A DNA stretch of 64,000 nucleotides from a virus: the IMG/VR virus record IMGVR_UViG_3300021962_000074, positions 1 to 64,000 of that record. The stretch is one strand, 5' to 3'. This document shows, in pieces, positions 1-18,744 of the stretch. Made by a program: the position numbers and the translations under genes. Every line of letters starts with the position of its first letter. The first letter of the stretch is position 1. Below the pieces are notes generated by a model, which made no database searches, was not told the DNA's origin, and saw only the letters and a program-made list of their open reading frames with translations.

Positions 1-5
1 GGTCC

Positions 6-145
6 ATGTCATGCATGACATCGAAGGCTAGAGCGGAAGTGTGTAGGACATACGGACTAGGGAAGCCTGAAAGGGCAGGAGGTTAACGAGTCCCTCCCCT
101 AGAGTCCCAAAAAGGACACACGACGAACCACCGCTAACAAACTAG
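6..145 (+). ncRNA. structured ncRNA of unknown family (possibly 5'-truncated by window edge)
   Basis: Nested helices AGCGG(32-36)/CCGCT(131-135), GTGTGT(39-44)/ACACAC(116-121), GGACT(54-58)/AGTCC(103-107); palindromic hairpin 6-21; no ORF. Confidence 0.55.
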
Positions 146-156
146 GTTCAAGAATT

Positions 157-296
157 TGGCTTGTCGTCTTAACTGGATAAGACGCATTCTAGTAGAGAGA
201 CCGAGTAGGGAAGTCCACTGGCTGCATCTAGGTTCGAGTCCTAGAGACTTCGTGAAAAGGTTGGAATGAAATGTGGGTTCGAGTCCCGCCAAGTCG
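157..296 (+). ncRNA. tRNA-like RNA with about 75-nt insertion replacing the anticodon loop and a second T-arm
   Basis: Acceptor TGGCTTG/CAAGTCG, D-arm GTCT-taactggata-AGAC, anticodon stem CATTC/GAATG, T-arm GTGGG-TTCGAGT-CCCGC; internal TCTAGG-TTCGAGT-CCTAGA; no encoded CCA. Confidence 0.75.
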
Positions 297-329
297 TTGA
301 TTTGATGGAGTTTTCGTAAGCGACTGATT
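290..329 (-). promoter_or_regulatory. two tandem IHF-consensus sites (27-nt spacing)
   Basis: Reverse complements AATCAAcgacTTG and AATCAGtcgcTTA match WATCARNNNNTTR. Confidence 0.55.
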
Positions 330-346
330 TGATGGAGTTTTTTTTA

Positions 347-376
347 GTTTACTTTTCAGTCCTAATGTAGGATAAT
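347..376 (+). promoter_or_regulatory. T4-type early promoter driving the ncRNA/tRNA region
   Basis: GTTTACT-N17-GATAAT with T-rich upstream tract; same architecture at 11435. Confidence 0.65.
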
Positions 377-381
377 GGTAT

Positions 382-522
382 CGTGGTAAGGTGATTCGAA
401 GCCTACGGGAAAGCCCGCCAAGTGCGGAACGTAACCTTCACAGGTCGGCGTAGGGAGAGGAAGATCACCACGTAGCGGGAGGCGGGAAGTCGGTGAAAAC
501 CCGACGGCAGGGGGCACGCTAC
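382..522 (+). ncRNA. structured ncRNA of unknown family
   Basis: CGTGGT/ACCACG, CCTACG/CGTAGG, GTAGCG/CGCTAC, GTCGG-TGAAAAC-CCGAC; begins at predicted TSS, ends in T-run. Confidence 0.65.
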
Positions 523-544
523 ATTTTTTGATAAATCAGAGTTT

Positions 545-662
545 TGCTGCTCTGACGCACGGCTAACTTAGGGGTTGTCAATTATTGACTTCCAACCGAT
601 GCGAATAGGTGAGTCGGTTCTTGTACTGTATCAGTACAGGCGCGCAAAAACCCCTAGCAGCA
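545..662 (+). ncRNA. structured multibranch ncRNA of unknown family
   Basis: TGCTGCT/AGCAGCA, TAGGGGTT/AACCCCTA and three internal hairpins. Confidence 0.65.
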
Positions 663-667
663 TTTCT

Positions 668-778
668 GGATCTGAGTCCTAAGAGCACTCAGAGTGCAGT
701 CGTCCGCAGCCGCACAAAGGGTTGCCCTGCAAACGGTAAGCAGGATCTCTGACGCATTGCGCCGATCAGAGCGTTCAT
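668..778 (+). ncRNA. structured ncRNA of unknown family
   Basis: Serial hairpins GCACT/AGTGC, GCAGCC/GGTTGC, CCTGC/GCAGG, CTCTGA/TCAGAG. Confidence 0.5.
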
Positions 779-787
779 TAACAATTT

Positions 788-964
788 GCGATTTTTGTAT
801 TCGCGCCACCCAGATGACGCAAGTCTAGATGGGAGCGTAACGGTGAACCCTCGATGTACTGAGGCAACTCATGACAACGTCCGTCAAGCGTTGTATTAGA
901 GAACAGTTTAAGAAACTGGGTAACCCCTGCGCCGAGTTGGGGGTGAATGGCGGATACAAATCGC
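788..964 (+). ncRNA. structured multibranch ncRNA of unknown family (177 nt)
   Basis: Closing helix GCGATTT-TTGTATTCGC/GCGGATACAA-ATCGC; two GCAA tetraloop hairpins; ACAACG/CGTTGT. Confidence 0.7.
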
Positions 965-966
965 TG

Positions 967-1003
967 CCAGTGTGGGTGTCACTGGAAATAAGAAACCACC
1001 CAC
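967..1003 (+). ncRNA. compact H-type pseudoknot upstream of first tRNA
   Basis: CCAGTG/CACTGG stem, loop TGGGTG pairs with CACCCA(997-1002), A-rich linker. Confidence 0.55.
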
Positions 1004-1010
1004 CGATTTC

Positions 1011-1084
1011 GGGGGATTAGTTAAATGGGATAACCTCTGCCTTGCACGCAGAAGTTGACAGTTCGATTCTGTCATCCTCCACCA
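1011..1084 (+). tRNA. tRNA-Ala(UGC)
   Basis: Cloverleaf, G3:U70, CCA. Confidence 0.95.
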
Positions 1085-1089
1085 AATTT

Positions 1090-1166
1090 GGGTCTATAGT
1101 ATAACGGTTTATTATCTGTGACTCTTAATCACTAGGATGTAGGTTCGAATCCTACTAGACCCACCA
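1090..1166 (+). tRNA. tRNA-Lys(CUU)
   Basis: Cloverleaf, CCA. Confidence 0.93.
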
Positions 1167-1172
1167 ATTTAT

Positions 1173-1249
1173 GCCCTGTTAGTTCAGAGGATTAGAACGC
1201 GACGCTACGAACGTCGAGGTCGGGAGTTCGAGTCTCTCACAGGGTGCCA
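1173..1249 (+). tRNA. tRNA-Arg(ACG)
   Basis: Cloverleaf, CCA. Confidence 0.95.
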
Positions 1250-1254
1250 GTTAT

Positions 1255-1338
1255 GCGCAGGTGGTGGAATGGTATACACGCTAGTCTTAGGAACTAGTGG
1301 CGAAAGTCGTGCGAGTTCGAGTCTCGCCCTGCGCACCA
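1255..1338 (+). tRNA. tRNA-Leu(UAG)
   Basis: Cloverleaf with variable arm, CCA. Confidence 0.95.
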
Positions 1339-1342
1339 AATT

Positions 1343-1545
1343 GTCAGAGTCGTGGCTGACGTTATAGTGTCCACGAACAGTAGCCTAACTGAGTTTTGGC
1401 ATGTAGTATCTGGTCGCTGGGATGCGACAACAGAGAAGCCAAGAACGTGAATGAGCGTTTGGGTCAACCACGACATCTACGCAAGGAACGGCAAGAGGAG
1501 GAGTGGGAGCATGCGCGGACGTGCGTTACAAAAACCGAGTCCGCA
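1343..1545 (+). ncRNA. structured ncRNA (about 200 nt) between tRNA-Leu and tRNA-Asp
   Basis: GTCGTGGCTGAC(1349-1360)/GTCAACCACGAC(1463-1474) 11 of 12 bp, inner TTGGC/GCCAA and GTCGC/GCGAC, 3' hairpin GCGGAC/GTCCGC. Confidence 0.65.
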
Positions 1546-1552
1546 AGATTTT

Positions 1553-1629
1553 GGTCTGTTAGTGTAGTTGGTGAACATGCCTGCCTGTCACGCAGGAGAT
1601 CACGGGTTCGAGTCCCGTACAGACCGCCA
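1553..1629 (+). tRNA. tRNA-Asp(GUC)
   Basis: Cloverleaf, CCA. Confidence 0.95.
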
Positions 1630-1635
1630 AATTTT

Positions 1636-1684
1636 CTGTCTCTGATGAGTCCGTAGGGACGAAACGCAGTGATGCGTCAGACAG
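1636..1684 (+). ncRNA. type I hammerhead ribozyme (predicted cleavage after C1678)
   Basis: Stem I CTGTCT/AGACAG, CTGATGA, stem II GTCC-gtag-GGAC, GAAA, stem III CGCA-gtga-TGCG, GTC cleavage triplet. Confidence 0.92.
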
Positions 1685-1790
1685 CGAATCTACCTTGTGG
1701 TGTAAGGTTTGCAAAGTTGATTAGGTCTCTGAAATATATTGACAAACGGCATCATATGCACTGCCTAGTAGACTTTCAGAGTGAACCACA
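1685..1790 (+). ncRNA. pseudoknotted ncRNA downstream of the hammerhead
   Basis: ACCTT/AAGGT hairpin whose loop GTGGT pairs with ACCAC(1785-1789); inner helix CTCTGAAA/TTTCAGAG. Confidence 0.55.
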
Positions 1791-1797
1791 TTTTTTT

Positions 1798-1874
1798 GGG
1801 TGTGTGGCACAGTTGGTTAGCGCACAGTCCTGATAAGACTGAGGTCGGTGGTTCGAATCCACCCACACCCACCA
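1798..1874 (+). tRNA. tRNA-Ile(GAU)
   Basis: Cloverleaf, CCA. Confidence 0.95.
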
Positions 1875-1878
1875 ATTT

Positions 1879-1955
1879 CGGAGTGTAGCACAGTCTGGTA
1901 GTGCGCTTGCTTTGGGAGCAAGATGTCGGGAGTTCGAATCTCTCCACTCCGACCA
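1879..1955 (+). tRNA. tRNA-Pro(UGG)
   Basis: Cloverleaf, CCA. Confidence 0.95.
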
Positions 1956-1961
1956 GTTTAT

Positions 1962-2036
1962 GGTTCCTTCGTCTAGCGGCTAGGACACAACCCTCTCAAG
2001 GTTGGAACACGGGTTCGATTCCCGTAGGAACTGCCA
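1962..2036 (+). tRNA. tRNA-Glu(CUC)
   Basis: Cloverleaf, CCA. Confidence 0.95.
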
Positions 2037-2042
2037 GTTTAT

Positions 2043-2117
2043 TGGCGAGTAGATCAGTGGTAGATCAGCTGACTGTTAATCAGTATGTCGTAGGTTCGAT
2101 CCCTACCTCGCCAGCCA
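2043..2117 (+). tRNA. tRNA-Asn(GUU)
   Basis: Cloverleaf, CCA. Confidence 0.95.
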
Positions 2118-2122
2118 AATAT

Positions 2123-2197
2123 GCCCGTATAGCACAGTGGTAGTGCAATCGCCTTGTAAGCGATAGGTCCTCTGTTCGAATCAGAGTGCGGGCACCA
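2123..2197 (+). tRNA. tRNA-Thr(UGU)
   Basis: Cloverleaf, CCA. Confidence 0.95.
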
Positions 2198-2202
2198 GTT
2201 TT

Positions 2203-2278
2203 GCGAGATTAACTCAGTTGGTAGAGTGTCGCCTTTACACGGCGAATGTCGGGAGTTCGAGCCTCTCATCTCGCACCA
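2203..2278 (+). tRNA. tRNA-Val(UAC)
   Basis: Cloverleaf, CCA. Confidence 0.95.
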
Positions 2279-2280
2279 AT

Positions 2281-2355
2281 GGTGACTATGGTGTAATGGT
2301 AGCACAAAAGTTTGTGGCACTTTTAGCGTCGGATCGTAACCGTCTAGTCACCCCA
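2281..2355 (+). tRNA. tRNA-His(GUG), non-canonical T-loop
   Basis: G-1:C73, T-loop ATCGTAA, CCA. Confidence 0.88.
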
Positions 2356-2361
2356 GTTTAT

Positions 2362-2436
2362 GCGGATGTAGCACAGTGGTAGTGCTTCTGCTTGCCAAGC
2401 AGAAGGTCGTGAGTTCGAATCTCATCATCCGCTCCA
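2362..2436 (+). tRNA. tRNA-Gly(GCC)
   Basis: Cloverleaf, U73, CCA. Confidence 0.95.
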
Positions 2437-2441
2437 ATTCA

Positions 2442-2493
2442 TGTGAACCAACTAACTGTGATATCTTCCACAATCGGAAGAGTAGCGTTCACA
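2442..2493 (+). ncRNA. small structured RNA in tRNA array
   Basis: TGTGAAC/GTTCACA closing stem, inner TCTTCC/GGAAGA. Confidence 0.4.
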
Positions 2494-2502
2494 CTCTCTT
2501 AT

Positions 2503-2577
2503 GTTCCCTTCATCTAGCGGTTAGGATGCTTCCCTTTCAAGGAAGCCACACGGGTTCGAATCCCGTAGGGAACGCCA
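2503..2577 (+). tRNA. tRNA-Glu(UUC)
   Basis: Cloverleaf, CCA. Confidence 0.95.
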
Positions 2578-2581
2578 ATTT

Positions 2582-2659
2582 TGCAGGATGTGTGCTAGCA
2601 GTAATGTATAGCCTCAATCGGATGCCTGGAGTGAGCAAACCCAACTATCCCATCCTGCA
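2582..2659 (+). ncRNA. tRNA-sized structured RNA lacking a T-arm
   Basis: Perfect 9-bp terminal helix TGCAGGATG/CATCCTGCA, 78 nt, occupies a tRNA slot. Confidence 0.45.
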
Positions 2660-2669
2660 TCTTTTTTAT

Positions 2670-2743
2670 TGAGGGATCGTCTAAAGGCAGGACGCATGAC
2701 TTTGAATCATGCTATCTTGGTTCGAATCCAAGTCCCTCAGCCA
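2670..2743 (+). tRNA. tRNA-Gln(UUG)
   Basis: Cloverleaf, U1:A72, CCA. Confidence 0.95.
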
Positions 2744-2745
2744 AT

Positions 2746-2820
2746 GGGTCTGTGGCGCAATGGTAGCGCAGTTGGCTTTTAACCAATTGGTTCCGAGTTC
2801 GAGTCTCGGCGGACCCACCA
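2746..2820 (+). tRNA. tRNA-Lys(UUU)
   Basis: Cloverleaf, CCA. Confidence 0.95.
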
Positions 2821-2826
2821 ATTTTC

Positions 2827-2900
2827 GCCCTCTTAGTTAAAAAGCATAACACATTCTTGGTAAGAATGAGTCGGTGGAGCGTTACCACCAGAGGGCACCA
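2827..2900 (+). tRNA. tRNA-Thr(GGU), non-canonical elbow
   Basis: All stems intact; D-loop AG instead of GG; T-loop AGCGTTA; CCA. Confidence 0.87.
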
Positions 2901-2903
2901 GTT

Positions 2904-2978
2904 TGCAGTGTGGAGAAGTAGAAACTCGCTAGGCTCATAACCTGGAGATCATGGGTGCAAATCCCATCACTGCTACCA
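2904..2978 (+). tRNA. tRNA-fMet(CAU), initiator-like
   Basis: U1:U72 mismatch, CAU anticodon, T-loop TGCAAAT, CCA. Confidence 0.85.
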
Positions 2979-2983
2979 ATTAT

Positions 2984-3068
2984 GGACAAGTGGGTGAGTG
3001 GTTAAAACCGACTGACTGTAAATCAGTTGCCTACGGCTACGGTGGTTCGAATCCATCCTTGTCCACCA
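2984..3068 (+). tRNA. tRNA-Tyr(GUA)
   Basis: Cloverleaf with variable arm, CCA. Confidence 0.95.
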
Positions 3069-3076
3069 ATTTTTTT

Positions 3077-3166
3077 GGAAGAGTGGCAGAGTCTGGTTTA
3101 TTGCACTTGTCTTGAAAACAAGCAACCGTAAAAGGTTCGTGGGTTCAAATCCTACCTCTTCCGCCA
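3077..3166 (+). tRNA. tRNA-Ser(UGA)
   Basis: Long variable arm, G73, CCA. Confidence 0.95.
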
Positions 3167-3170
3167 ATTT

Positions 3171-3244
3171 GCCTCGCTGGTGTAACGGTAACATAACTGT
3201 CTCCAAAACAGTTGTTGGGAGTTCGAGTCTCTCGCGGGGTGCCA
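3171..3244 (+). tRNA. tRNA-Trp(CCA)
   Basis: Cloverleaf, CCA. Confidence 0.93.
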
Positions 3245-3249
3245 GTTTT

Positions 3250-3326
3250 GCGGTCGTAGTTCAGTTGGATAGAACATCTGCCTTCTAAGCAGAGAGTCGG
3301 GGGTTCGAATCCCTCCGATCGCGCCA
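3250..3326 (+). tRNA. tRNA-Arg(UCU)
   Basis: Cloverleaf, CCA. Confidence 0.95.
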
Positions 3327-3331
3327 ATTAT

Positions 3332-3421
3332 GGAGACTTGGCTGAGTGGTCGATAGCGGCATCCTGCTAAGATGTTTTTCGTGAAAGCGAAACGTGGGTT
3401 CGAATCCCACAGTCTCCGCCA
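3332..3421 (+). tRNA. tRNA-Ser(GCU)
   Basis: Long variable arm, CCA. Confidence 0.95.
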
Positions 3422-3426
3422 ATTAT

Positions 3427-3502
3427 GGTGAGGTAGCATAGCGGCTAATGCAGCACTTTCATACGGTGTTTATCGTGGGTTCGAGTCCCACCCTCACTAC
3501 CA
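3427..3502 (+). tRNA. tRNA-Met(CAU), probably elongator
   Basis: Cloverleaf, anticodon loop TTCATAC, paired 1:72; Ile2 identity not excluded. Confidence 0.85.
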
Positions 3503-3503
3503 T

Positions 3504-3579
3504 GTCGCCTCAGCTGAACTAGTGATAGCGTCTGCCTGAAGAGCAGAAGAGGTTGGAGCGTAACCAACAGGCGACACCA
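3504..3579 (+). tRNA. tRNA-Phe(GAA), non-canonical elbow
   Basis: Stems intact; C8, D-loop AG, T-loop AGCGTAA; CCA. Confidence 0.87.
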
Positions 3580-3584
3580 ATTTT

Positions 3585-3661
3585 GCCCAGATGACGGAAT
3601 TGGCATACGTGTCTGACTCAAAATCAGGATTTTGTGGGTTCGACTCCCACTCTGGGCACCA
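3585..3661 (+). tRNA. tRNA-Leu(CAA) without long variable arm
   Basis: 77 nt, Leu-type D-arm, A73, CCA. Confidence 0.9.
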
Positions 3662-3663
3662 AT

Positions 3664-3738
3664 GTTACGGTGGCTGAAAGGTTAGGCGGCAGTCTGCAAA
3701 ACTGCTTCATGCTGGTTCGATTCCAGTCCGTAACTCCA
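3664..3738 (+). tRNA. tRNA-Cys(GCA)
   Basis: Cloverleaf, U73, CCA. Confidence 0.95.
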
Positions 3739-3744
3739 ATTTAT

Positions 3745-3818
3745 TGAGGGATCGTCTAACGGCAGGACGCAAGACTCTGACTCTTGCTATCTAGGTTCGA
3801 ATCCTAGTCCCTCAGCCA
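3745..3818 (+). tRNA. tRNA-Gln(CUG)
   Basis: Cloverleaf, close paralog of 2670-2743, CCA. Confidence 0.95.
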
Positions 3819-3823
3819 ATCAT

Positions 3824-3899
3824 GGGCGTGTAGTTCAGTGGTATGAACGTCTCCTTGACATGGAGAAGGTCGCTGGTTCGATCCCAGCCATGCCCACCA
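3824..3899 (+). tRNA. tRNA-Val(GAC)
   Basis: Cloverleaf, CCA. Confidence 0.95.
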
Positions 3900-3900
3900 T

Positions 3901-3975
3901 ATCCTCGTGGTGAAACGGATATCACGGTTCTCTCCTAAAGAATCATTGCAGGTTCGATTCCTGCCGAGGATGCCA
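3901..3975 (+). tRNA. tRNA-Arg(CCU)
   Basis: Cloverleaf, CCA. Confidence 0.93.
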
Positions 3976-3983
3976 ACTAAATA
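3976..3983 (+). promoter_or_regulatory. T4-type late promoter (ACTAAATA)
   Basis: TAAATA 5 nt before ATG 3989. Confidence 0.55.
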
Positions 3984-3988
3984 GATGC

Positions 3989-4492
3989 ATGGAACCAAAA
4001 ATCTATACATACGACGAAGTCCGCGCCATGGCGATGGATGGCGACATCATGTTTCTTACAGTCAATAAGAAAGATTATCTTTCTAGACTGACGTCGTGGT
4101 TCACCAAATCGCCGTTCACACATGCGGCATTTTTGTTTTGGTATCATGGTCGTCTAATGGTTGTTGAATCAACCACGCATGGTGGCATTCGCATCGTGCA
4201 AGCATCTACATACAAGGATCGCAATTTTGGATTGATTGCTGCACCACGTCCGTGGGAGTTCATCATTGATGATGCCCTAGTGCGTAGTGGCACTGCAGAG
4301 TATGGCTGGTTCAGTGCGATGTATATCGGAATGCGTGAATTTGCTTTAAAACAATTCAATGTACGTCTACCAGTCAACAAGAACAATCGCAACAAAGCCT
4401 GTAGTGAATTTGTGGCAGAAGTGTTAGGTCTAAAAGATGTTGACATTTCGCCAAAAAGATTATATGATATATTAAATGCTCCTGTAGTGTAA
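3989..4492 (+). CDS. permuted papain-like NlpC/P60 (YiiX/YebB-like) hydrolase
   Basis: GDIMF...SPFTHAAF...VVES...ACSEFVAE, His-before-Cys arrangement. Confidence 0.75.
   Translation: MEPKIYTYDEVRAMAMDGDIMFLTVNKKDYLSRLTSWFTKSPFTHAAFLFWYHGRLMVVESTTHGGIRIVQASTYKDRNFGLIAAPRPWEFIIDDALVRSGTAEYGWFSAMYIGMREFALKQFNVRLPVNKNNRNKACSEFVAEVLGLKDVDISPKRLYDILNAPVV
4440..4468 (+). promoter_or_regulatory. sigma70-type promoter inside CDS, upstream of tRNA-Ile(UAU)
   Basis: TTGACA-N17-TATGAT. Confidence 0.7.
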
Positions 4493-4572
4493 CGGTTAGC
4501 ACGCGAGGCTTATACTCTCGATCTCCGCCAGATTAGCGGGTAGTCTAGGTTCGAATCCTAGCAGGAGCACCA
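4478..4572 (+). tRNA. tRNA-Ile(UAU) with long variable arm
   Basis: GCTCCTG/CAGGAGC-A-CCA, loop CT-TAT-AC, 24-nt variable region with CCGC/GCGG hairpin, canonical T-arm. Confidence 0.85.
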
Positions 4573-4582
4573 ATAAATAAAT

Positions 4583-4656
4583 GCGGGGTTGGCATAGTGG
4601 TTGTGTCCCAGCCTTCCAAGCTGGCTACATGGGTTCGATTCCCATACTCCGCTCCA
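4583..4656 (+). tRNA. tRNA-Gly(UCC)
   Basis: Cloverleaf, U73, CCA. Confidence 0.93.
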
Positions 4657-4680
4657 GTTTTTTAGAAGGGAGATAAGAAG

Positions 4681-4944
4681 ATGAAGAAGTTCCTAACAGC
4701 AATGGTTATGACTACAGTTGTGACTACATCACATGCTGATGTGAATACAGCCGTTCCTGCACCAACAGAGCAAGAATCATTTACAGTCAAGTGGCATCCA
4801 ACTTCAGTGGTCATCGGCGCAATCGCTGGTGGTGCACTTGTTGGTGGAGTCGGTGCAGTGATCGTCGGCGGTCTCGTCGGCGAAGGTGTCATTCGTATTA
4901 TTAAGAAGAAACAAGAGCAGACTGCTAAGGAAACGCAAGAATGA
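4681..4944 (+). CDS. signal-peptide protein with glycine-zipper membrane segment
   Basis: N-terminal signal, GAIAGGALVGGVGAVIVGG; RBS upstream. Confidence 0.7.
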   Translation: MKKFLTAMVMTTVVTTSHADVNTAVPAPTEQESFTVKWHPTSVVIGAIAGGALVGGVGAVIVGGLVGEGVIRIIKKKQEQTAKETQE

Positions 4945-5111
4945 TTCGTATTCTATTCCTAGCAGCATTCCTACTCATTGGCTGTGAAAAAGATCCAGTC
5001 ACCACCGAGGCTCGACTACCTGAGCCAACTTTCAAAGTCAACACTCCGCAGCAATGGAAAGAATATTGCGCAAGAGAGGGACAGGAGGATCCAGCATGTC
5101 CTTCCAACTAA
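4941..5111 (+). CDS. 56-aa lipoprotein (not in ORF track), resembles BTLCP N-terminal segment
   Basis: MIRILFLAAFLLIG-C lipobox; PQQWKEYCAREGQEDPAC; ATGA overlap with previous gene. Confidence 0.7.
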   Translation: MIRILFLAAFLLIGCEKDPVTTEARLPEPTFKVNTPQQWKEYCAREGQEDPACPSN

Positions 5112-5506
5112 ACGAAAACAACGAAGTCATACAGACTCCAGAACTCATGGAGTTACTAAACAAGACCAATCGTCACTTCAATAAATTTCGCTATGAATAC
5201 GATGAGAATCTTCATCGTCAGATTGACTACTGGACTGCACTGATTGACAAATACAATGCTGGTGACTGCGACGACTACGCACTGTCAAAGCGCAAGAGGC
5301 TGATTGAAGAAGGTGTTCCATATGAATGCCTGTTTCCTACAATCTGCACCGTGGGTAAAGAAGGTCATCTTGTTCTTGTCGTAAGAACAGACATCTGCGA
5401 TCTTCTTCTGGACAACATTGAGCAGCGAGTGGTTGGCGTTGATCGCGTGAACTACAAGTGGTGGTATCGTTTAGATCCCGTGAACAAATCATGGGTAATG
5501 TTATAG
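5096..5506 (+). CDS. bacterial transglutaminase-like cysteine proteinase (BTLCP/LapG-like) catalytic domain
   Basis: GDCDDYALSKRKRL...GHLVLVV...LLLDN (Cys-His-Asp); GGAGG before ATG 5096. Confidence 0.85.
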   Translation: MSFQLNENNEVIQTPELMELLNKTNRHFNKFRYEYDENLHRQIDYWTALIDKYNAGDCDDYALSKRKRLIEEGVPYECLFPTICTVGKEGHLVLVVRTDICDLLLDNIEQRVVGVDRVNYKWWYRLDPVNKSWVML

Positions 5507-5509
5507 TAT

Positions 5510-5594
5510 GCGAGTGTGGCGGAATCGGTATACGCAGCAGACTTAAAATCTGCCACTTTCGAGTTTGTGGGTTCGAGTCCCACCACTCGCACCA
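5510..5594 (+). tRNA. tRNA-Leu(UAA)
   Basis: Cloverleaf with variable arm, CCA. Confidence 0.95.
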
Positions 5595-17362: not shown

Positions 17363-17721
17363 TGATAAGACAATACATCTTCGAAGGACTAGTAGATCGC
17401 GTGGTTGATGGCGACACCTATGACATCATTCTTGATCTAGGTTTCTACATCACACACACCATTCGTGTAAGACTCAAGGGTGTTGATACACCTGAAGTCT
17501 ACGGCAAGAATGCCAGTGAGGAAGGTCGCGTTGCTTCTGCTTATGTGAAATCATTGATTGAAAATCAGCGTGTGGTCGTACAGACTTATAAGAATGCACC
17601 AAGTTCATTCAATCGCTGGGAAGCAGATGTGTATTTCAATCTGCTTCTGGAAGATGGGTCAACCAGCCAAGTGAGTTTGGCTGATCATTTAGTTGAGAAA
17701 GGATATGCCGTTAGGGTATAA
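17362..17721 (+). CDS. thermonuclease (SNase-like)
   Basis: RVVDGDT...RVRLKGVDTPE...LVEKGYA. Confidence 0.9.
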   Translation: MIRQYIFEGLVDRVVDGDTYDIILDLGFYITHTIRVRLKGVDTPEVYGKNASEEGRVASAYVKSLIENQRVVVQTYKNAPSSFNRWEADVYFNLLLEDGSTSQVSLADHLVEKGYAVRV

Positions 17722-17722
17722 T
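17693..17722 (+). promoter_or_regulatory. sigma70-type promoter for tmRNA
   Basis: TTGAGA-N18-TATAAT. Confidence 0.55.
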
Positions 17723-17728
17723 AGAATT

Positions 17729-18043
17729 ATAGTGGTATGAAGCGAAATGAAGGTGCTGCGGACTCGGGTTCGATTCCCGACATCTCCACCAAAAGTGTAC
17801 TGTAAGTATGATTCTGTCGAAACACTAGATTCAGAAGTCAATAAATGTTTCGCAAGTACACTTCTTATGGGGATGCACTGGCTTCGACGGGGCAAGATAG
17901 TTAAGCAGACCACTGGAAAGGCGACGAACCTAATTCGCGCAAACTAAGTAATCGCAGCAAATGACGATTATTATGATTATGCCCTAGCGGCTTAATCTGA
18001 GTTTTGCAGGTTGGACTTGGAAACAGAATCAACCTGCACTTTT
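17729..18043 (+). ncRNA. ssrA: circularly permuted two-piece tmRNA
   Basis: Acceptor piece ends GGGTTCGATTCCCGACATCTCCACCA (17791); intervening 17792-17868; coding piece starts GGGGATG (17869, G3:U70); tag frame AANDDYYDYALAA* 17954-17995; 3' hairpin. Confidence 0.93.
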
Positions 18044-18078
18044 TCAACAATCCAATAATTGGAGTTTGGTAGATATAA

Positions 18079-18744
18079 ATGAATATACATCAAGTCTATT
18101 TTGATGATTCACAAAGAGTTAATCTAAACAACGAATTCATTCCATTTCGTAACATTCCGAATATGGAAACTCCATATCCCCAGTTTTATGAATATCCGAT
18201 ATTTAAATTTCTCCAGAACAAGTATGAAGAAGAGAAATATAATGGTCTATGGGGTTATGTCAGCTGGAGATTTCAACAGAAACTTCAAAGATTTTATCCT
18301 AATCTTACACCTGCAGATTATTGTCAGTGGATAATTGATAATCCAGGTTATGATTTTTATCATATGAATGTAGTGTGGAGAGAAACTGAATTGTTTGATA
18401 ATATATTTTTTCAAGGCGAGAAATGTCATCCAGGACTACTAGGCTTCTTTACAAGATTGGTTCATCTAAAAGGGTGGGATTTCGATTTACATAAAAAATA
18501 TGATCCAGAGTATTCCCTCACTTGCCACTATTATGTGATGAACACTAAGACATGGCGTCAGTGGCTAAGTTTTTTAGATGACACATTTGAGTTTGTTAAA
18601 TCTGATGCTCAATTATACAACTATGCGAATCGTGAAAGTAGGCACAGAAACAGTCCTTGGTATAACTGGGCGTTCATAGCCGAACGGATCATCACCATAT
18701 GGATTCACTTGAATCCTCAAGTCAAATTTCTGGCATACAAATAG
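18079..18744 (+). CDS. hypothetical, possibly glycosyltransferase-like
   Basis: WGYVSWRF...HPG...FIAER pattern; AT-rich. Confidence 0.5.
   Translation: MNIHQVYFDDSQRVNLNNEFIPFRNIPNMETPYPQFYEYPIFKFLQNKYEEEKYNGLWGYVSWRFQQKLQRFYPNLTPADYCQWIIDNPGYDFYHMNVVWRETELFDNIFFQGEKCHPGLLGFFTRLVHLKGWDFDLHKKYDPEYSLTCHYYVMNTKTWRQWLSFLDDTFEFVKSDAQLYNYANRESRHRNSPWYNWAFIAERIITIWIHLNPQVKFLAYK

What the first reader, a model, noticed from the sequence alone, without database searches (positions are those of the whole stretch)
157..296. Double-elbow tRNA mimic: anticodon loop replaced by a second tRNA-like corner
Seen: intact acceptor, D, anticodon and T stems, but the anticodon stem extends (CATTCTAGT/GTTGGAATG) into an insertion containing GAAGTC/GACTTC, an ACTGG segment like the first D-loop, and a second T-arm TCTAGG-TTCGAGT-CCTAGA. 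It has no anticodon and, unlike all 33 tRNAs here, no encoded CCA. Inference: a non-decoding RNA displaying two elbows, for example a decoy for anticodon nucleases or modification enzymes, a Y-RNA-like scaffold, or an analogue of the T4 species I RNA.
Basis: partly seen in the sequence, partly recalled or inferred. Interest (0 to 1): 0.8.

Follow-up and report, generated by a model that had tools for sequence, protein, structure and literature searches.

The report
Two-elbow tRNA look-alike in phage
At the head of its tRNA gene array, an uncultured T4-like water phage carries a 140-base RNA gene shaped like a tRNA whose codon-reading loop is replaced by a second tRNA "top half"; it cannot decode, looks conserved as a structured RNA in close relatives, and its job is unknown.

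Summary
Window 157-296 (+) folds into a near-canonical tRNA frame whose anticodon loop is replaced by a 74-nt insert. The insert ends in a second acceptor/T-arm stack of 12 base pairs with an identical T loop. The tRNA finders do not call it as a tRNA.

It cannot become an ordinary tRNA. No excision gives a 7-nt loop with U33, and neither 3' end has the CCA that all 33 tRNAs here encode.

Contigs from three other metagenome studies hold it at about 96-97% identity. The five listed substitutions break no pair, and one pair of them is compensatory (A217-U223 to C-G). Cassette junctions in those relatives lie within 1-3 nt of both ends, so it is a discrete module. This sample is small and shallow. 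More distant relatives (gp32 70-76% identical) lack it.

It looks home-made: the outer 5' half and the inner T arm resemble the phage's own tRNA-Gln genes.

The closest described things are the tRNA-shaped "enigmatic introns" of Lak megaphages, T4 species 1 RNA and YrlA-type Y RNAs. It fails defining features of the intron and Y RNA classes.

Best reading: a tRNA-derived, non-decoding small RNA acting by tRNA mimicry. Expression, processing and function are untested. This scan has noted similar two-elbow RNAs in other phages.

The parts
157..296 (+). whole tRNA-shaped RNA gene (140 nt); U297 would be the discriminator
   Evidence: Fold. Cassette junctions in relatives at 153/154 and 297/298.
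157..163 (+). outer acceptor stem, 5' strand; pairs with 290-296 (U1.G72, G2-C71, G3.U70)
   Evidence: Sequence. Pair probability 0.98-0.99.
166..183 (+). outer D arm: stem 166-169/180-183, loop with G175 G176
   Evidence: Resembles the D arm of the phage's own tRNA-Gln.
185..190 (+). anticodon stem, 5' strand; pairs with 263-268 (5 canonical bp plus U190.G263)
   Evidence: probability about 0.91.
191..198 (+). 8-nt purine-rich bulge AGUAGAGA
   Evidence: Minimum-free-energy fold.
199..202 (+). connector helix GACC; pairs with GGUU at 259-262
Evidence: probability 0.5-0.9.
203..208 (+). 5' side of the internal loop (GAGUA) opposite 254-258 (GAAAA), a possible bulged-G/loop-E motif AGUA/GAA; closed by G208:U253
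   Evidence: Inference from the sequence. G208.U253 becomes G-C in two relatives.
210..215 (+). inner acceptor-like stem, 5' strand; pairs with 246-251
   Evidence: probability 0.91. No listed change in relatives.
216..226 (+). inner connector: mini D hairpin C216-G224, A217-U223 with a loop holding U219 G220 G221, then C225 A226
   Evidence: A217C plus T223G together give C-G in X4, X8 and X11. C218G adds G218-C222. TGG is kept.
227..245 (+). inner T arm: stem 227-232/240-245, loop TTCGAGT at 233-239
   Evidence: Shares 18 of 19 positions with the T arm of tRNA-Gln(CUG) at 3745-3818. No listed change in relatives.
246..253 (+). inner acceptor-like stem, 3' strand (246-251), G252 in the discriminator place, U253
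254..268 (+). 3' side of the internal loop, connector helix and anticodon stem
269..289 (+). variable loop AAAU (A44, U48) and outer T arm 273-277/285-289 with loop TTCGAGT
   Evidence: G288A turns U274.G288 into U-A in X4 and X11.
290..297 (+). outer acceptor stem, 3' strand, plus U297; no CCA follows (TGA)
298..324 (+). 27-nt stretch forming one copy of a direct repeat (GATTTGATGGAGTTTT) just after the element; absent in relatives
   Evidence: left out in X4, X8 and X11.

Best explanation
This is a discrete tRNA-derived small RNA gene that does not decode. The structure is read from the sequence.

Structure:
- A tRNA-Gln-like cloverleaf keeps the nucleotides that build the tRNA L-shape: U8, G10, G18-G19, G26.A44, A15:U48, G53-C61 and a T-loop of the canonical TTCRA type.
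- In place of the anticodon loop sits a long irregular helix: 6 bp, a purine bulge, 4 bp, and an AGUA/GAA internal loop.
- That helix is capped by a second tRNA top half: a 12-bp acceptor/T-arm stack, a T loop, and a mini D hairpin offering GG.

Inferred steps, not shown:
- It is transcribed with the tRNA array.
- RNase P cuts before U157 (7-bp acceptor on a 5-bp T stem, U at -1).
- The 3' end is trimmed near U297.
- The product is a stable L-shaped RNA with a second elbow at the far end of its long arm.
- It cannot read a codon, and because no CCA is encoded it is probably not meant to be charged.

Most likely mode of action: tRNA mimicry. It would occupy or recruit factors that recognise tRNA top halves or elbows rather than anticodons. 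The partner is unknown.
For: - Cloverleaf with an intact tertiary-signature set, plus a nested stack.
- No tRNA call from ARAGORN or Rfam. ARAGORN's intron mode places the anticodon in the inner T stem, which is not credible.
- All 20 amino acids are already served by 33 CCA-ending tRNAs, including Phe.
- A191 would sit at position 33 in every possible spliced 7-nt loop (sequence).
- Relatives from three other studies keep the element at about 96-97% identity. Five substitutions are listed: one compensatory pair, one that adds a pair, and two that turn G.U into Watson-Crick pairs. None breaks a pair. There are no insertions or deletions inside it, while both flanks are swapped or deleted within 1-3 nt of its ends.
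- Randomisation: P(no broken pair) is 0.04-0.07; P(no broken pair and at least one compensatory change) is about 0.003.
- Stems are free of mismatches, unlike a decaying pseudogene.
Against: - No evidence of expression, ends or processing. The RNA runs held too few words to judge, and the single read-laying run went to DNA runs.
- Divergence among known homologues is only 3-4% and amounts to one lineage split, so covariation rests on one event.
- The 216-224 and 217-223 pairs were added after the substitutions had been seen.
- Up to four differences in two runs were not listed.
- Three relatives with gp32 70-76% identical (G001-G003) have tRNA arrays without it. One weak lagoon contig may lack it.
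- So it is young or dispensable.
- The fold z-score is only -1.2.
- No partner protein was identified.
Confidence: 0.5

Rival explanations
1. It is a derived form of the tRNA-shaped intron seen in other phage tRNAs. The inner minihelix would be cut out, or at least nicked at 209/210, by RNase P and 3'-end nucleases. That would leave a two-piece or re-ligated outer RNA and a free mini-tRNA of about 43 nt. Either the minihelix is the product, or the element is a selfish insert in a former tRNA-Gln gene.
For: - Same design as Lak-type introns: a 12-bp acceptor/T stack nested in the anticodon loop (Devoto 2019, PMC6784885).
- I found clear cases in L088:4219-4335 and L011:13478-13597. Both read CUU, then a 7+5-bp minihelix, N, CCA, then AUAA, which restores CUUAUAA on excision.
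- M. smegmatis YrlA shows that RNase P can cut a closed acceptor-like stem in vivo (PMC4201824).
- Neighbouring modules behave as cassettes in relatives.
Against: - No CCA follows the inner stem.
- The linkers are 20 and 11 nt, so excision leaves a loop of about 31 nt without U33.
- The stack is 6+6 rather than 7+5 unless a C.A mismatch is accepted.
- The inner T arm resembles this phage's own tRNA-Gln(CUG), not the intron family.
- No RNA ligase or RtcB lies in the 76.7 kb held, though that is only 44% of the genome.
Confidence: 0.2
2. It is a functionless by-product of rearrangement between tRNA-Gln gene copies, that is, a young chimeric pseudogene. It persists only because it is recent.
For: - Sequence kinship of the outer 5' half and the inner T arm with the phage's tRNA-Gln genes.
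- Absent from more distant relatives.
- Low divergence among holders, so conservation is weak evidence.
- The region is a patchwork of gained and lost modules.
Against: - All stems are perfect.
- All tertiary-signature nucleotides of both elbows are kept.
- Every listed substitution is structure-neutral or compensatory.
- There are no insertions or deletions inside it, while the flanks are riddled with them.
- The nested fold is 9 kcal/mol better than the tandem alternative.
Confidence: 0.15
3. It is an aminoacylatable tRNA-like RNA. After the host adds CCA, the outer acceptor stem with G3.U70 would be charged by alanyl-tRNA synthetase, as tmRNA is. The RNA would then act on ribosomes or on another aminoacyl-tRNA user.
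For: - G159.U294 falls at 3:70 when counted from the T stem, and G2-C71 is present.
- From established knowledge, G3.U70 is the main alanine identity element and works in minihelices.
- The phage invests in translation RNAs: 33 tRNAs and a permuted tmRNA.
Against: - No encoded CCA, in a genome where all 33 tRNAs encode it.
- U73 and U1.G72 instead of A73 and G1-C72.
- One G.U among seven pairs is easily chance.
- The bulky arm cannot enter a decoding site.
Confidence: 0.07
4. It is a Y RNA-like partner of a Ro60 protein encoded in the missing part of the genome or by the host.
For: [quoted passage not shown]
- There is a weak Rfam YrlA match at 273-304.
Against: - The match is 19 bits against a cut-off of 69, covers only the T arm, and ordinary tRNA junctions here score up to 31 bits.
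- No TROVE gene in 76.7 kb.
- No GNCGAA motif in 157-296 (sequence).
- The ends lie at the acceptor stem, not at a Ro-binding stem.
Confidence: 0.04

Closest known systems
tRNA-shaped ('enigmatic') introns of Lak megaphage tRNAs (Devoto et al. 2019, PMC6784885); further cases here in L088 and L011
   Same: - A full tRNA frame sitting in a phage tRNA array.
- The anticodon loop holds a nested 12-bp acceptor/T-arm stack with a T loop and a short GG-bearing connector.
   Different: - Those inserts run from the first base of a 7-bp stem to N-CCA and leave a perfect 7-nt anticodon loop (CUU + AUAA in L088 and L011).
- Here there is no CCA, the linkers are 20 and 11 nt, no U33 loop is possible, and the outer frame also lacks CCA.
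- The inner T arm is related to this phage's own tRNA-Gln, not to those introns.
Phage T4 species 1 RNA (rnaC, 139 nt; L120:1409-1547, minus strand)
   Same: - A stable-RNA-sized gene of about 140 nt inside the tRNA cluster of a T4-type phage.
- The ends form an acceptor-like stem next to a canonical T arm.
- No encoded CCA.
- Function unknown.
   Different: - rnaC has one T arm, no D arm and no second elbow. Its interior is made of long hairpins.
- No specific similarity: model R1 scores it at 21 bits, like T4 tRNAs.
- It lies at the end of its array, not the head.
YrlA-type bacterial and phage Y RNAs (Rfam RF02553; Chen et al. 2014, PMC4201824)
   Same: - A non-decoding RNA built around a tRNA-like domain with D and T arms.
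- The anticodon-stem position leads into another functional helix.
   Different: - YrlA is circularly permuted (closed acceptor, ends at the Ro-binding stem), lies next to Ro60 and carries a GNCGAA motif.
- None of these is met here.
tmRNA tRNA-like domain
   Same: - An acceptor/T-arm stack with a reduced D region, like the inner module.
- G3.U70, as in the outer stem.
   Different: - No tag reading frame and no pseudoknots.
- No Rfam tmRNA match at this place. The phage's own permuted tmRNA lies at 17681-18086.

Membership tests
tRNA (Rfam RF00005) | Cloverleaf with acceptor, D and T arms and the tertiary-signature nucleotides | tested here: met
tRNA (Rfam RF00005) | 7-nt anticodon loop with U33 and an anticodon; scored by tRNA finders | tested here: not met
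   - The loop is replaced by 74 nt.
- No Rfam tRNA match even at E<=10.
- Not called by ARAGORN.
- No splice can give U33.
Lak-type tRNA-shaped intron in a phage tRNA | Acceptor/T-arm minihelix nested in the anticodon loop of a tRNA frame | tested here: met
Lak-type tRNA-shaped intron in a phage tRNA | Insert ends in N-CCA | tested here: not met
   G252 is followed by TGA. L088 and L011 have CCA.
Lak-type tRNA-shaped intron in a phage tRNA | Removal of the insert restores a canonical 7-nt anticodon loop | tested here: not met
   Linkers of 20 and 11 nt, with A at position 33 in all registers.
Lak-type tRNA-shaped intron in a phage tRNA | Actual splicing of the insert | not testable with these tools
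   No usable RNA data. Splicing has not been shown for the family itself.
YrlA / Y RNA (RF02553) | Match to the family model at its gathering score | tested here: not met
   19 bits against 69, over the T arm only.
YrlA / Y RNA (RF02553) | Ro60 (TROVE) gene nearby | tested here: inconclusive
   None in the 76.7 kb held, but the genome is about 44% complete.
YrlA / Y RNA (RF02553) | Ro-binding stem at the RNA ends with a GNCGAA motif | tested here: not met
   No CGAA anywhere in 157-296. The ends form the acceptor stem.
T4 species 1 RNA (rnaC) | Sequence or structure homology to T4 rnaC | tested here: not met
   R1 scores L120:1411-1501 at 21 bits, the same as T4 tRNAs. The folds differ.
T4 species 1 RNA (rnaC) | Stable RNA of about 140 nt processed from the tRNA cluster precursor by RNase P | not testable with these tools
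   Size and location fit. Processing is unknown.
Alanine-accepting RNAs (tRNA-Ala, tmRNA) | G3.U70 in the acceptor stem | tested here: met
   G159.U294.
Alanine-accepting RNAs (tRNA-Ala, tmRNA) | A73 and a 3' CCA; charging by AlaRS | tested here: not met
   U297 and no CCA. Charging itself cannot be tested here.

The most novel reading that the evidence does not exclude
Phages repeatedly build bivalent tRNA mimics: a full tRNA body with a second tRNA top half grafted onto the anticodon arm. These would engage two top-half or elbow-binding sites at once. Candidate targets are a dimeric tRNA-targeting defence nuclease, or the host's RNase P, RNase Z or CCA machinery. This element would be a T4-like, tRNA-Gln-derived member of that kind, acting as an anti-defence or processing-control RNA.
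Probability: 0.15. Interest if true: 0.85.

Novelty: new variant of a known kind. Interest (0 to 1): 0.6.

Why it matters
Phage tRNA clusters have been known for fifty years to hold tRNA-like stable RNAs of unknown function, such as T4 species 1 and 2. Megaphage tRNAs hold unexplained tRNA-shaped inserts.

This element joins the two themes. It uses the nested-minihelix design but has lost every means of decoding, while close relatives appear to keep its structure. If it is a working RNA, the tRNA top half would be a reusable module that phages deploy outside translation. Its small size (140 nt) gives a tractable case for finding the partner.

It also warns annotators that tRNA finders miss such genes or, in intron mode, mislabel them.

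Tried and rejected
Homologue searches that found nothing useful:
- An exact 25-mer of the inner T arm in IMG/VR: no hit.
- Proteins inside the tRNA array as anchors: no relatives.
- Whole-record search of 25 gp32 relatives with model R1: nothing. That first look also missed ordinary tRNAs, so it is uninformative.
- Direct cmsearch with filters off on the tRNA arrays of three relatives (G001, G002, G003): only ordinary tRNAs. blastn of 1-1100: only tRNA-Ala matched.
- Metagenome pattern scan (TGGC, fixed spacer, two T loops): 35 loci and no homologue, only other two-T-arm tRNA-like genes.
- Linker-based pattern in IMG/VR: mostly class II tRNA ends at attachment sites.

Readings considered and rejected:
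- ARAGORN's intron-mode call 'tRNA-Arg(CCT), 47-nt intron': the anticodon lies in the inner T stem.
- Alternative tandem fold, suggested because the inner 5' strand GAAGTC resembles the outer 3' strand CAAGTC: 9 kcal/mol worse, pair probability 0.0.
- GOLLD, ROOL or other Rfam families over 1-1100: none.
- The AGUAG motif occurs twice here, and GAGUAGCG occurs twice in T4 rnaC. By my own back-of-envelope estimate, not run in a tool, the chance level is about 0.08, so this is not evidence.

Inconclusive:
- RNA ligase (PF09511, PF09414), RtcB and the CCA-adding enzyme family are absent from the 76.7 kb held. The genome is 44% complete, and PF09511 matched no control genome.
- One lagoon contig joining 149 to 542, which would lack the element, has only 25 nt on one side. 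That is too weak to use.

Full report
**Context.** The window is the first 64 kb of a 76.7-kb IMG/VR viral contig judged 44% complete.
- Its genes mark a distant T4-type myovirus: gp32-like single-strand-binding protein, DNA end protector, baseplate hub and wedge proteins, and PhoH.
- Positions 1011-5594 hold 33 tRNA genes covering all 20 amino acids. ARAGORN finds 32. Rfam adds tRNA-Phe at 3504-3579, whose anticodon GAA I read.
- A permuted tmRNA lies at 17.7 kb.
- The finding sits 700 nt upstream of the first tRNA, in a stretch without plausible reading frames.

**The observation.**
- 157-296 is a tRNA frame with a 7-bp acceptor stem, U8, a 4-bp D stem, a D loop with GG, G26, a 5-bp anticodon stem, a 4-nt variable loop and a T arm with loop TTCGAGT.
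- Counted from the T stem it keeps G10, A15:U48, G26.A44 and G53-C61.
- Between the two strands of the anticodon stem lie 74 nt (190-263).
- Their core is a 6-bp stem (210-215/246-251) abutting a 6-bp T stem (227-232/240-245) with the same TTCGAGT loop. That makes a 12-layer stack, the length of a tRNA acceptor/T-arm minihelix.
- An 11-nt connector between them carries TGG.
- Pair probabilities for all these helices are 0.9 or more.
A 4-bp GACC/GGUU helix is preferred instead. It is flanked by an 8-nt purine bulge and a 5x5 internal loop whose AGUA/GAA letters fit a bulged-G motif. That motif is my inference only.
- T-loop-like words occur in the first 6 kb only in tRNAs and twice here.
- The 'stem, short linker, T arm, stem' design occurs nowhere else in the window outside two tRNAs and the tmRNA.

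**It does not decode.**
- ARAGORN and Rfam do not call it.
- ARAGORN's intron mode gives an absurd model.
- Whatever is removed, position 33 of a 7-nt loop would be A191 or another non-U base, so no ordinary tRNA can result.
- All 33 tRNAs end in an encoded CCA. This element has U-UGA after the outer stem and G-UGA after the inner one.

**Homologues.**
- IMG/VR and the JGI metagenome contigs gave no homologue.
- Three relatives sharing 70-76% gp32 identity (G001-G003; G001 is a 96%-complete genome of 161 kb) have tRNA arrays but no such element, and nothing similar to window 1-1000.
- Logan contigs of public runs do hold it. Besides the probable source samples, runs from an estuary, an aquatic, a lagoon and a freshwater study cover 153-296.
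- The substitutions listed inside the element are:
  - A217C, C218G and T223G, together in three runs;
  - T253C, in two runs;
  - G288A, in two runs.
- Read on the structure:
  - 217 and 223 form an A-U pair that becomes C-G, in a 2-bp mini hairpin whose loop holds the conserved UGG;
  - C218G adds a third pair;
  - T253C turns G208.U253 into G-C;
  - G288A turns U274.G288 into U-A.
- Nothing breaks a pair, and the inner T arm is untouched.
- In a randomisation, five random substitutions break no pair in 4-7% of trials, and do so with a compensatory pair in about 0.3%.
- Caveats:
  - the mini hairpin was recognised after the substitutions had been seen;
  - the three linked changes are one event;
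  - up to four differences were not listed.
- In the same contigs, about 160-190 nt of unrelated sequence is inserted at 153/154 and 27 nt are missing from 298. Further modules (380-543, 874-1005) are replaced by a few letters.
- The element is therefore a discrete cassette whose borders match the predicted RNA ends to within 1-3 nt. It has no internal insertions or deletions in a region full of them.

**Origin.**
- The outer 5' half resembles the phage's two tRNA-Gln genes: U1, and the D arm TCGTCT...GACGCAT.
- The inner T arm with its 5' flank shares 18 of 19 positions with tRNA-Gln(CUG).
- The inner module reads as a tRNA that has lost positions 10-43.
- The element thus looks assembled from this lineage's own tRNA genes, which fits its narrow distribution.

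**Comparison with known things.**
- A generic scan for two T loops 30-60 nt apart found more than 118 viral loci, a mixed collection.
- Among them, L088:4219-4335 and L011:13478-13597 are clean tRNA-shaped introns. After CUU comes a 7+5-bp minihelix, a discriminator and CCA, then AUAA. Excision at the minihelix ends restores CUUAUAA, a tRNA-Ile(UAU) loop, in both.
- This is the kind of 'enigmatic intron' reported for Lak megaphages (PMC6784885). Earlier notes of this scan led me to that paper.
- The present element shares the design but fails three defining features: no CCA, long linkers, and no restorable loop.
- T4 species 1 RNA (139 nt, in the T4 tRNA cluster) shares size, setting and an acceptor/T arm, but not the second elbow or any specific similarity.
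- The YrlA match is meaningless (19 bits; ordinary tRNA junctions here reach 31), and no Ro60 gene is present in the held DNA.
- A literature search found no description of a non-decoding tRNA with a nested top half.
- Earlier AI notes of this scan report similar two-elbow RNAs in two other phages. I did not check those.

**Mechanism.**
- Shown: the shape, the inability to decode, the missing CCA, and structure-compatible change in close relatives.
- Inferred:
  - co-transcription with the array;
  - RNase P cleavage before U157;
  - 3' trimming;
  - a stable L-shaped RNA with a second elbow;
  - action by mimicry of tRNA top halves.
- Alternatives are weighed in the rival list: an intron-like or RNase P-nicked two-piece RNA, a young pseudogene, an alanine-accepting RNA (G3.U70 is present, but with U73 and no CCA), and a Y RNA.
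- No RNA ligase, RtcB or CCA-adding enzyme gene lies in the held 44% of the genome, which decides nothing.

**Verdict.**
- This is a real, discrete tRNA-derived RNA gene that appears to be under structural constraint, though the evidence for that is thin.
- It is a new variant at the meeting point of two barely understood kinds: phage tRNA-cluster stable RNAs and tRNA-shaped inserts.
- The evidence for selection rests on shallow divergence. Expression and function are open.

Noticed in passing
window 1636-1684 (+): Hammerhead type I ribozyme match just under the Rfam cut-off (30.5 bits against 34, E=1.5e-4). It starts 7 nt after the CCA of tRNA-Asp (1553-1629), so it may be a self-cleaving 3'-processing element in the array.
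   Followed up: no
window 3504-3579, 2827-2900, 2282-2355, 2904-2978: tRNA-Phe, Thr(GGU), His and one Met have non-canonical T loops (for example AGCGTAA, AGCGTTA, ATCGTAA, TGCAAAT). Phe and Thr(GGU) also lack GG in the D loop, giving an alternative elbow in a phage that also carries a two-elbow RNA. ARAGORN misses Phe, and Rfam misses Thr(GGU).
   Followed up: partly
window 4478-4572: tRNA-Ile(UAU) is 95 nt long with a long variable arm, which is unusual for an isoleucine tRNA.
   Followed up: no
window 17681-18086: Phage-encoded permuted (two-piece) tmRNA with tag AANDDYYDYALAA.
   Followed up: no
window 1-1010: The ORF-free leader of the tRNA array behaves as a set of cassettes. In relatives, 380-543 is replaced by 5 nt, 874-1005 by 25 nt, about 160-190 nt is inserted at 153/154, and sequence upstream of 118 is swapped. 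No Rfam family matches any module.
   Followed up: partly
L088:4219-4335 (+) and L011:13478-13597 (-): Two tRNA genes in low-GC phage tRNA arrays are split after CUU by a 7+5-bp minihelix ending in N-CCA, followed by AUAA. Excision at the minihelix ends gives CUUAUAA (Ile-UAU) in both, whereas a naive reading gives different anticodons (UGU, UCA). This supports cutting at the minihelix borders.
   Followed up: partly
L232:6620-6735 (+): tRNA-Asn(GUU)-like gene with an intact CUGUUAA loop, followed inside the anticodon arm by a near-duplicate of its own variable loop, T arm and acceptor 3' strand. This is a different kind of two-T-arm gene.
   Followed up: no
window 298-351: Direct repeat of about 27 nt (GATTTGATGGAGTTTT core, containing GGAG) immediately after the element. 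Relatives have one copy.
   Followed up: no
window 191-195 and 204-208; L120:1409-1547 (-): AGUAG occurs twice in the element's connector, and GAGUAGCG occurs twice in T4 rnaC. By my own rough estimate this is not significant, but it may be worth a look if a T4-type RNA-binding protein is sought.
   Followed up: partly
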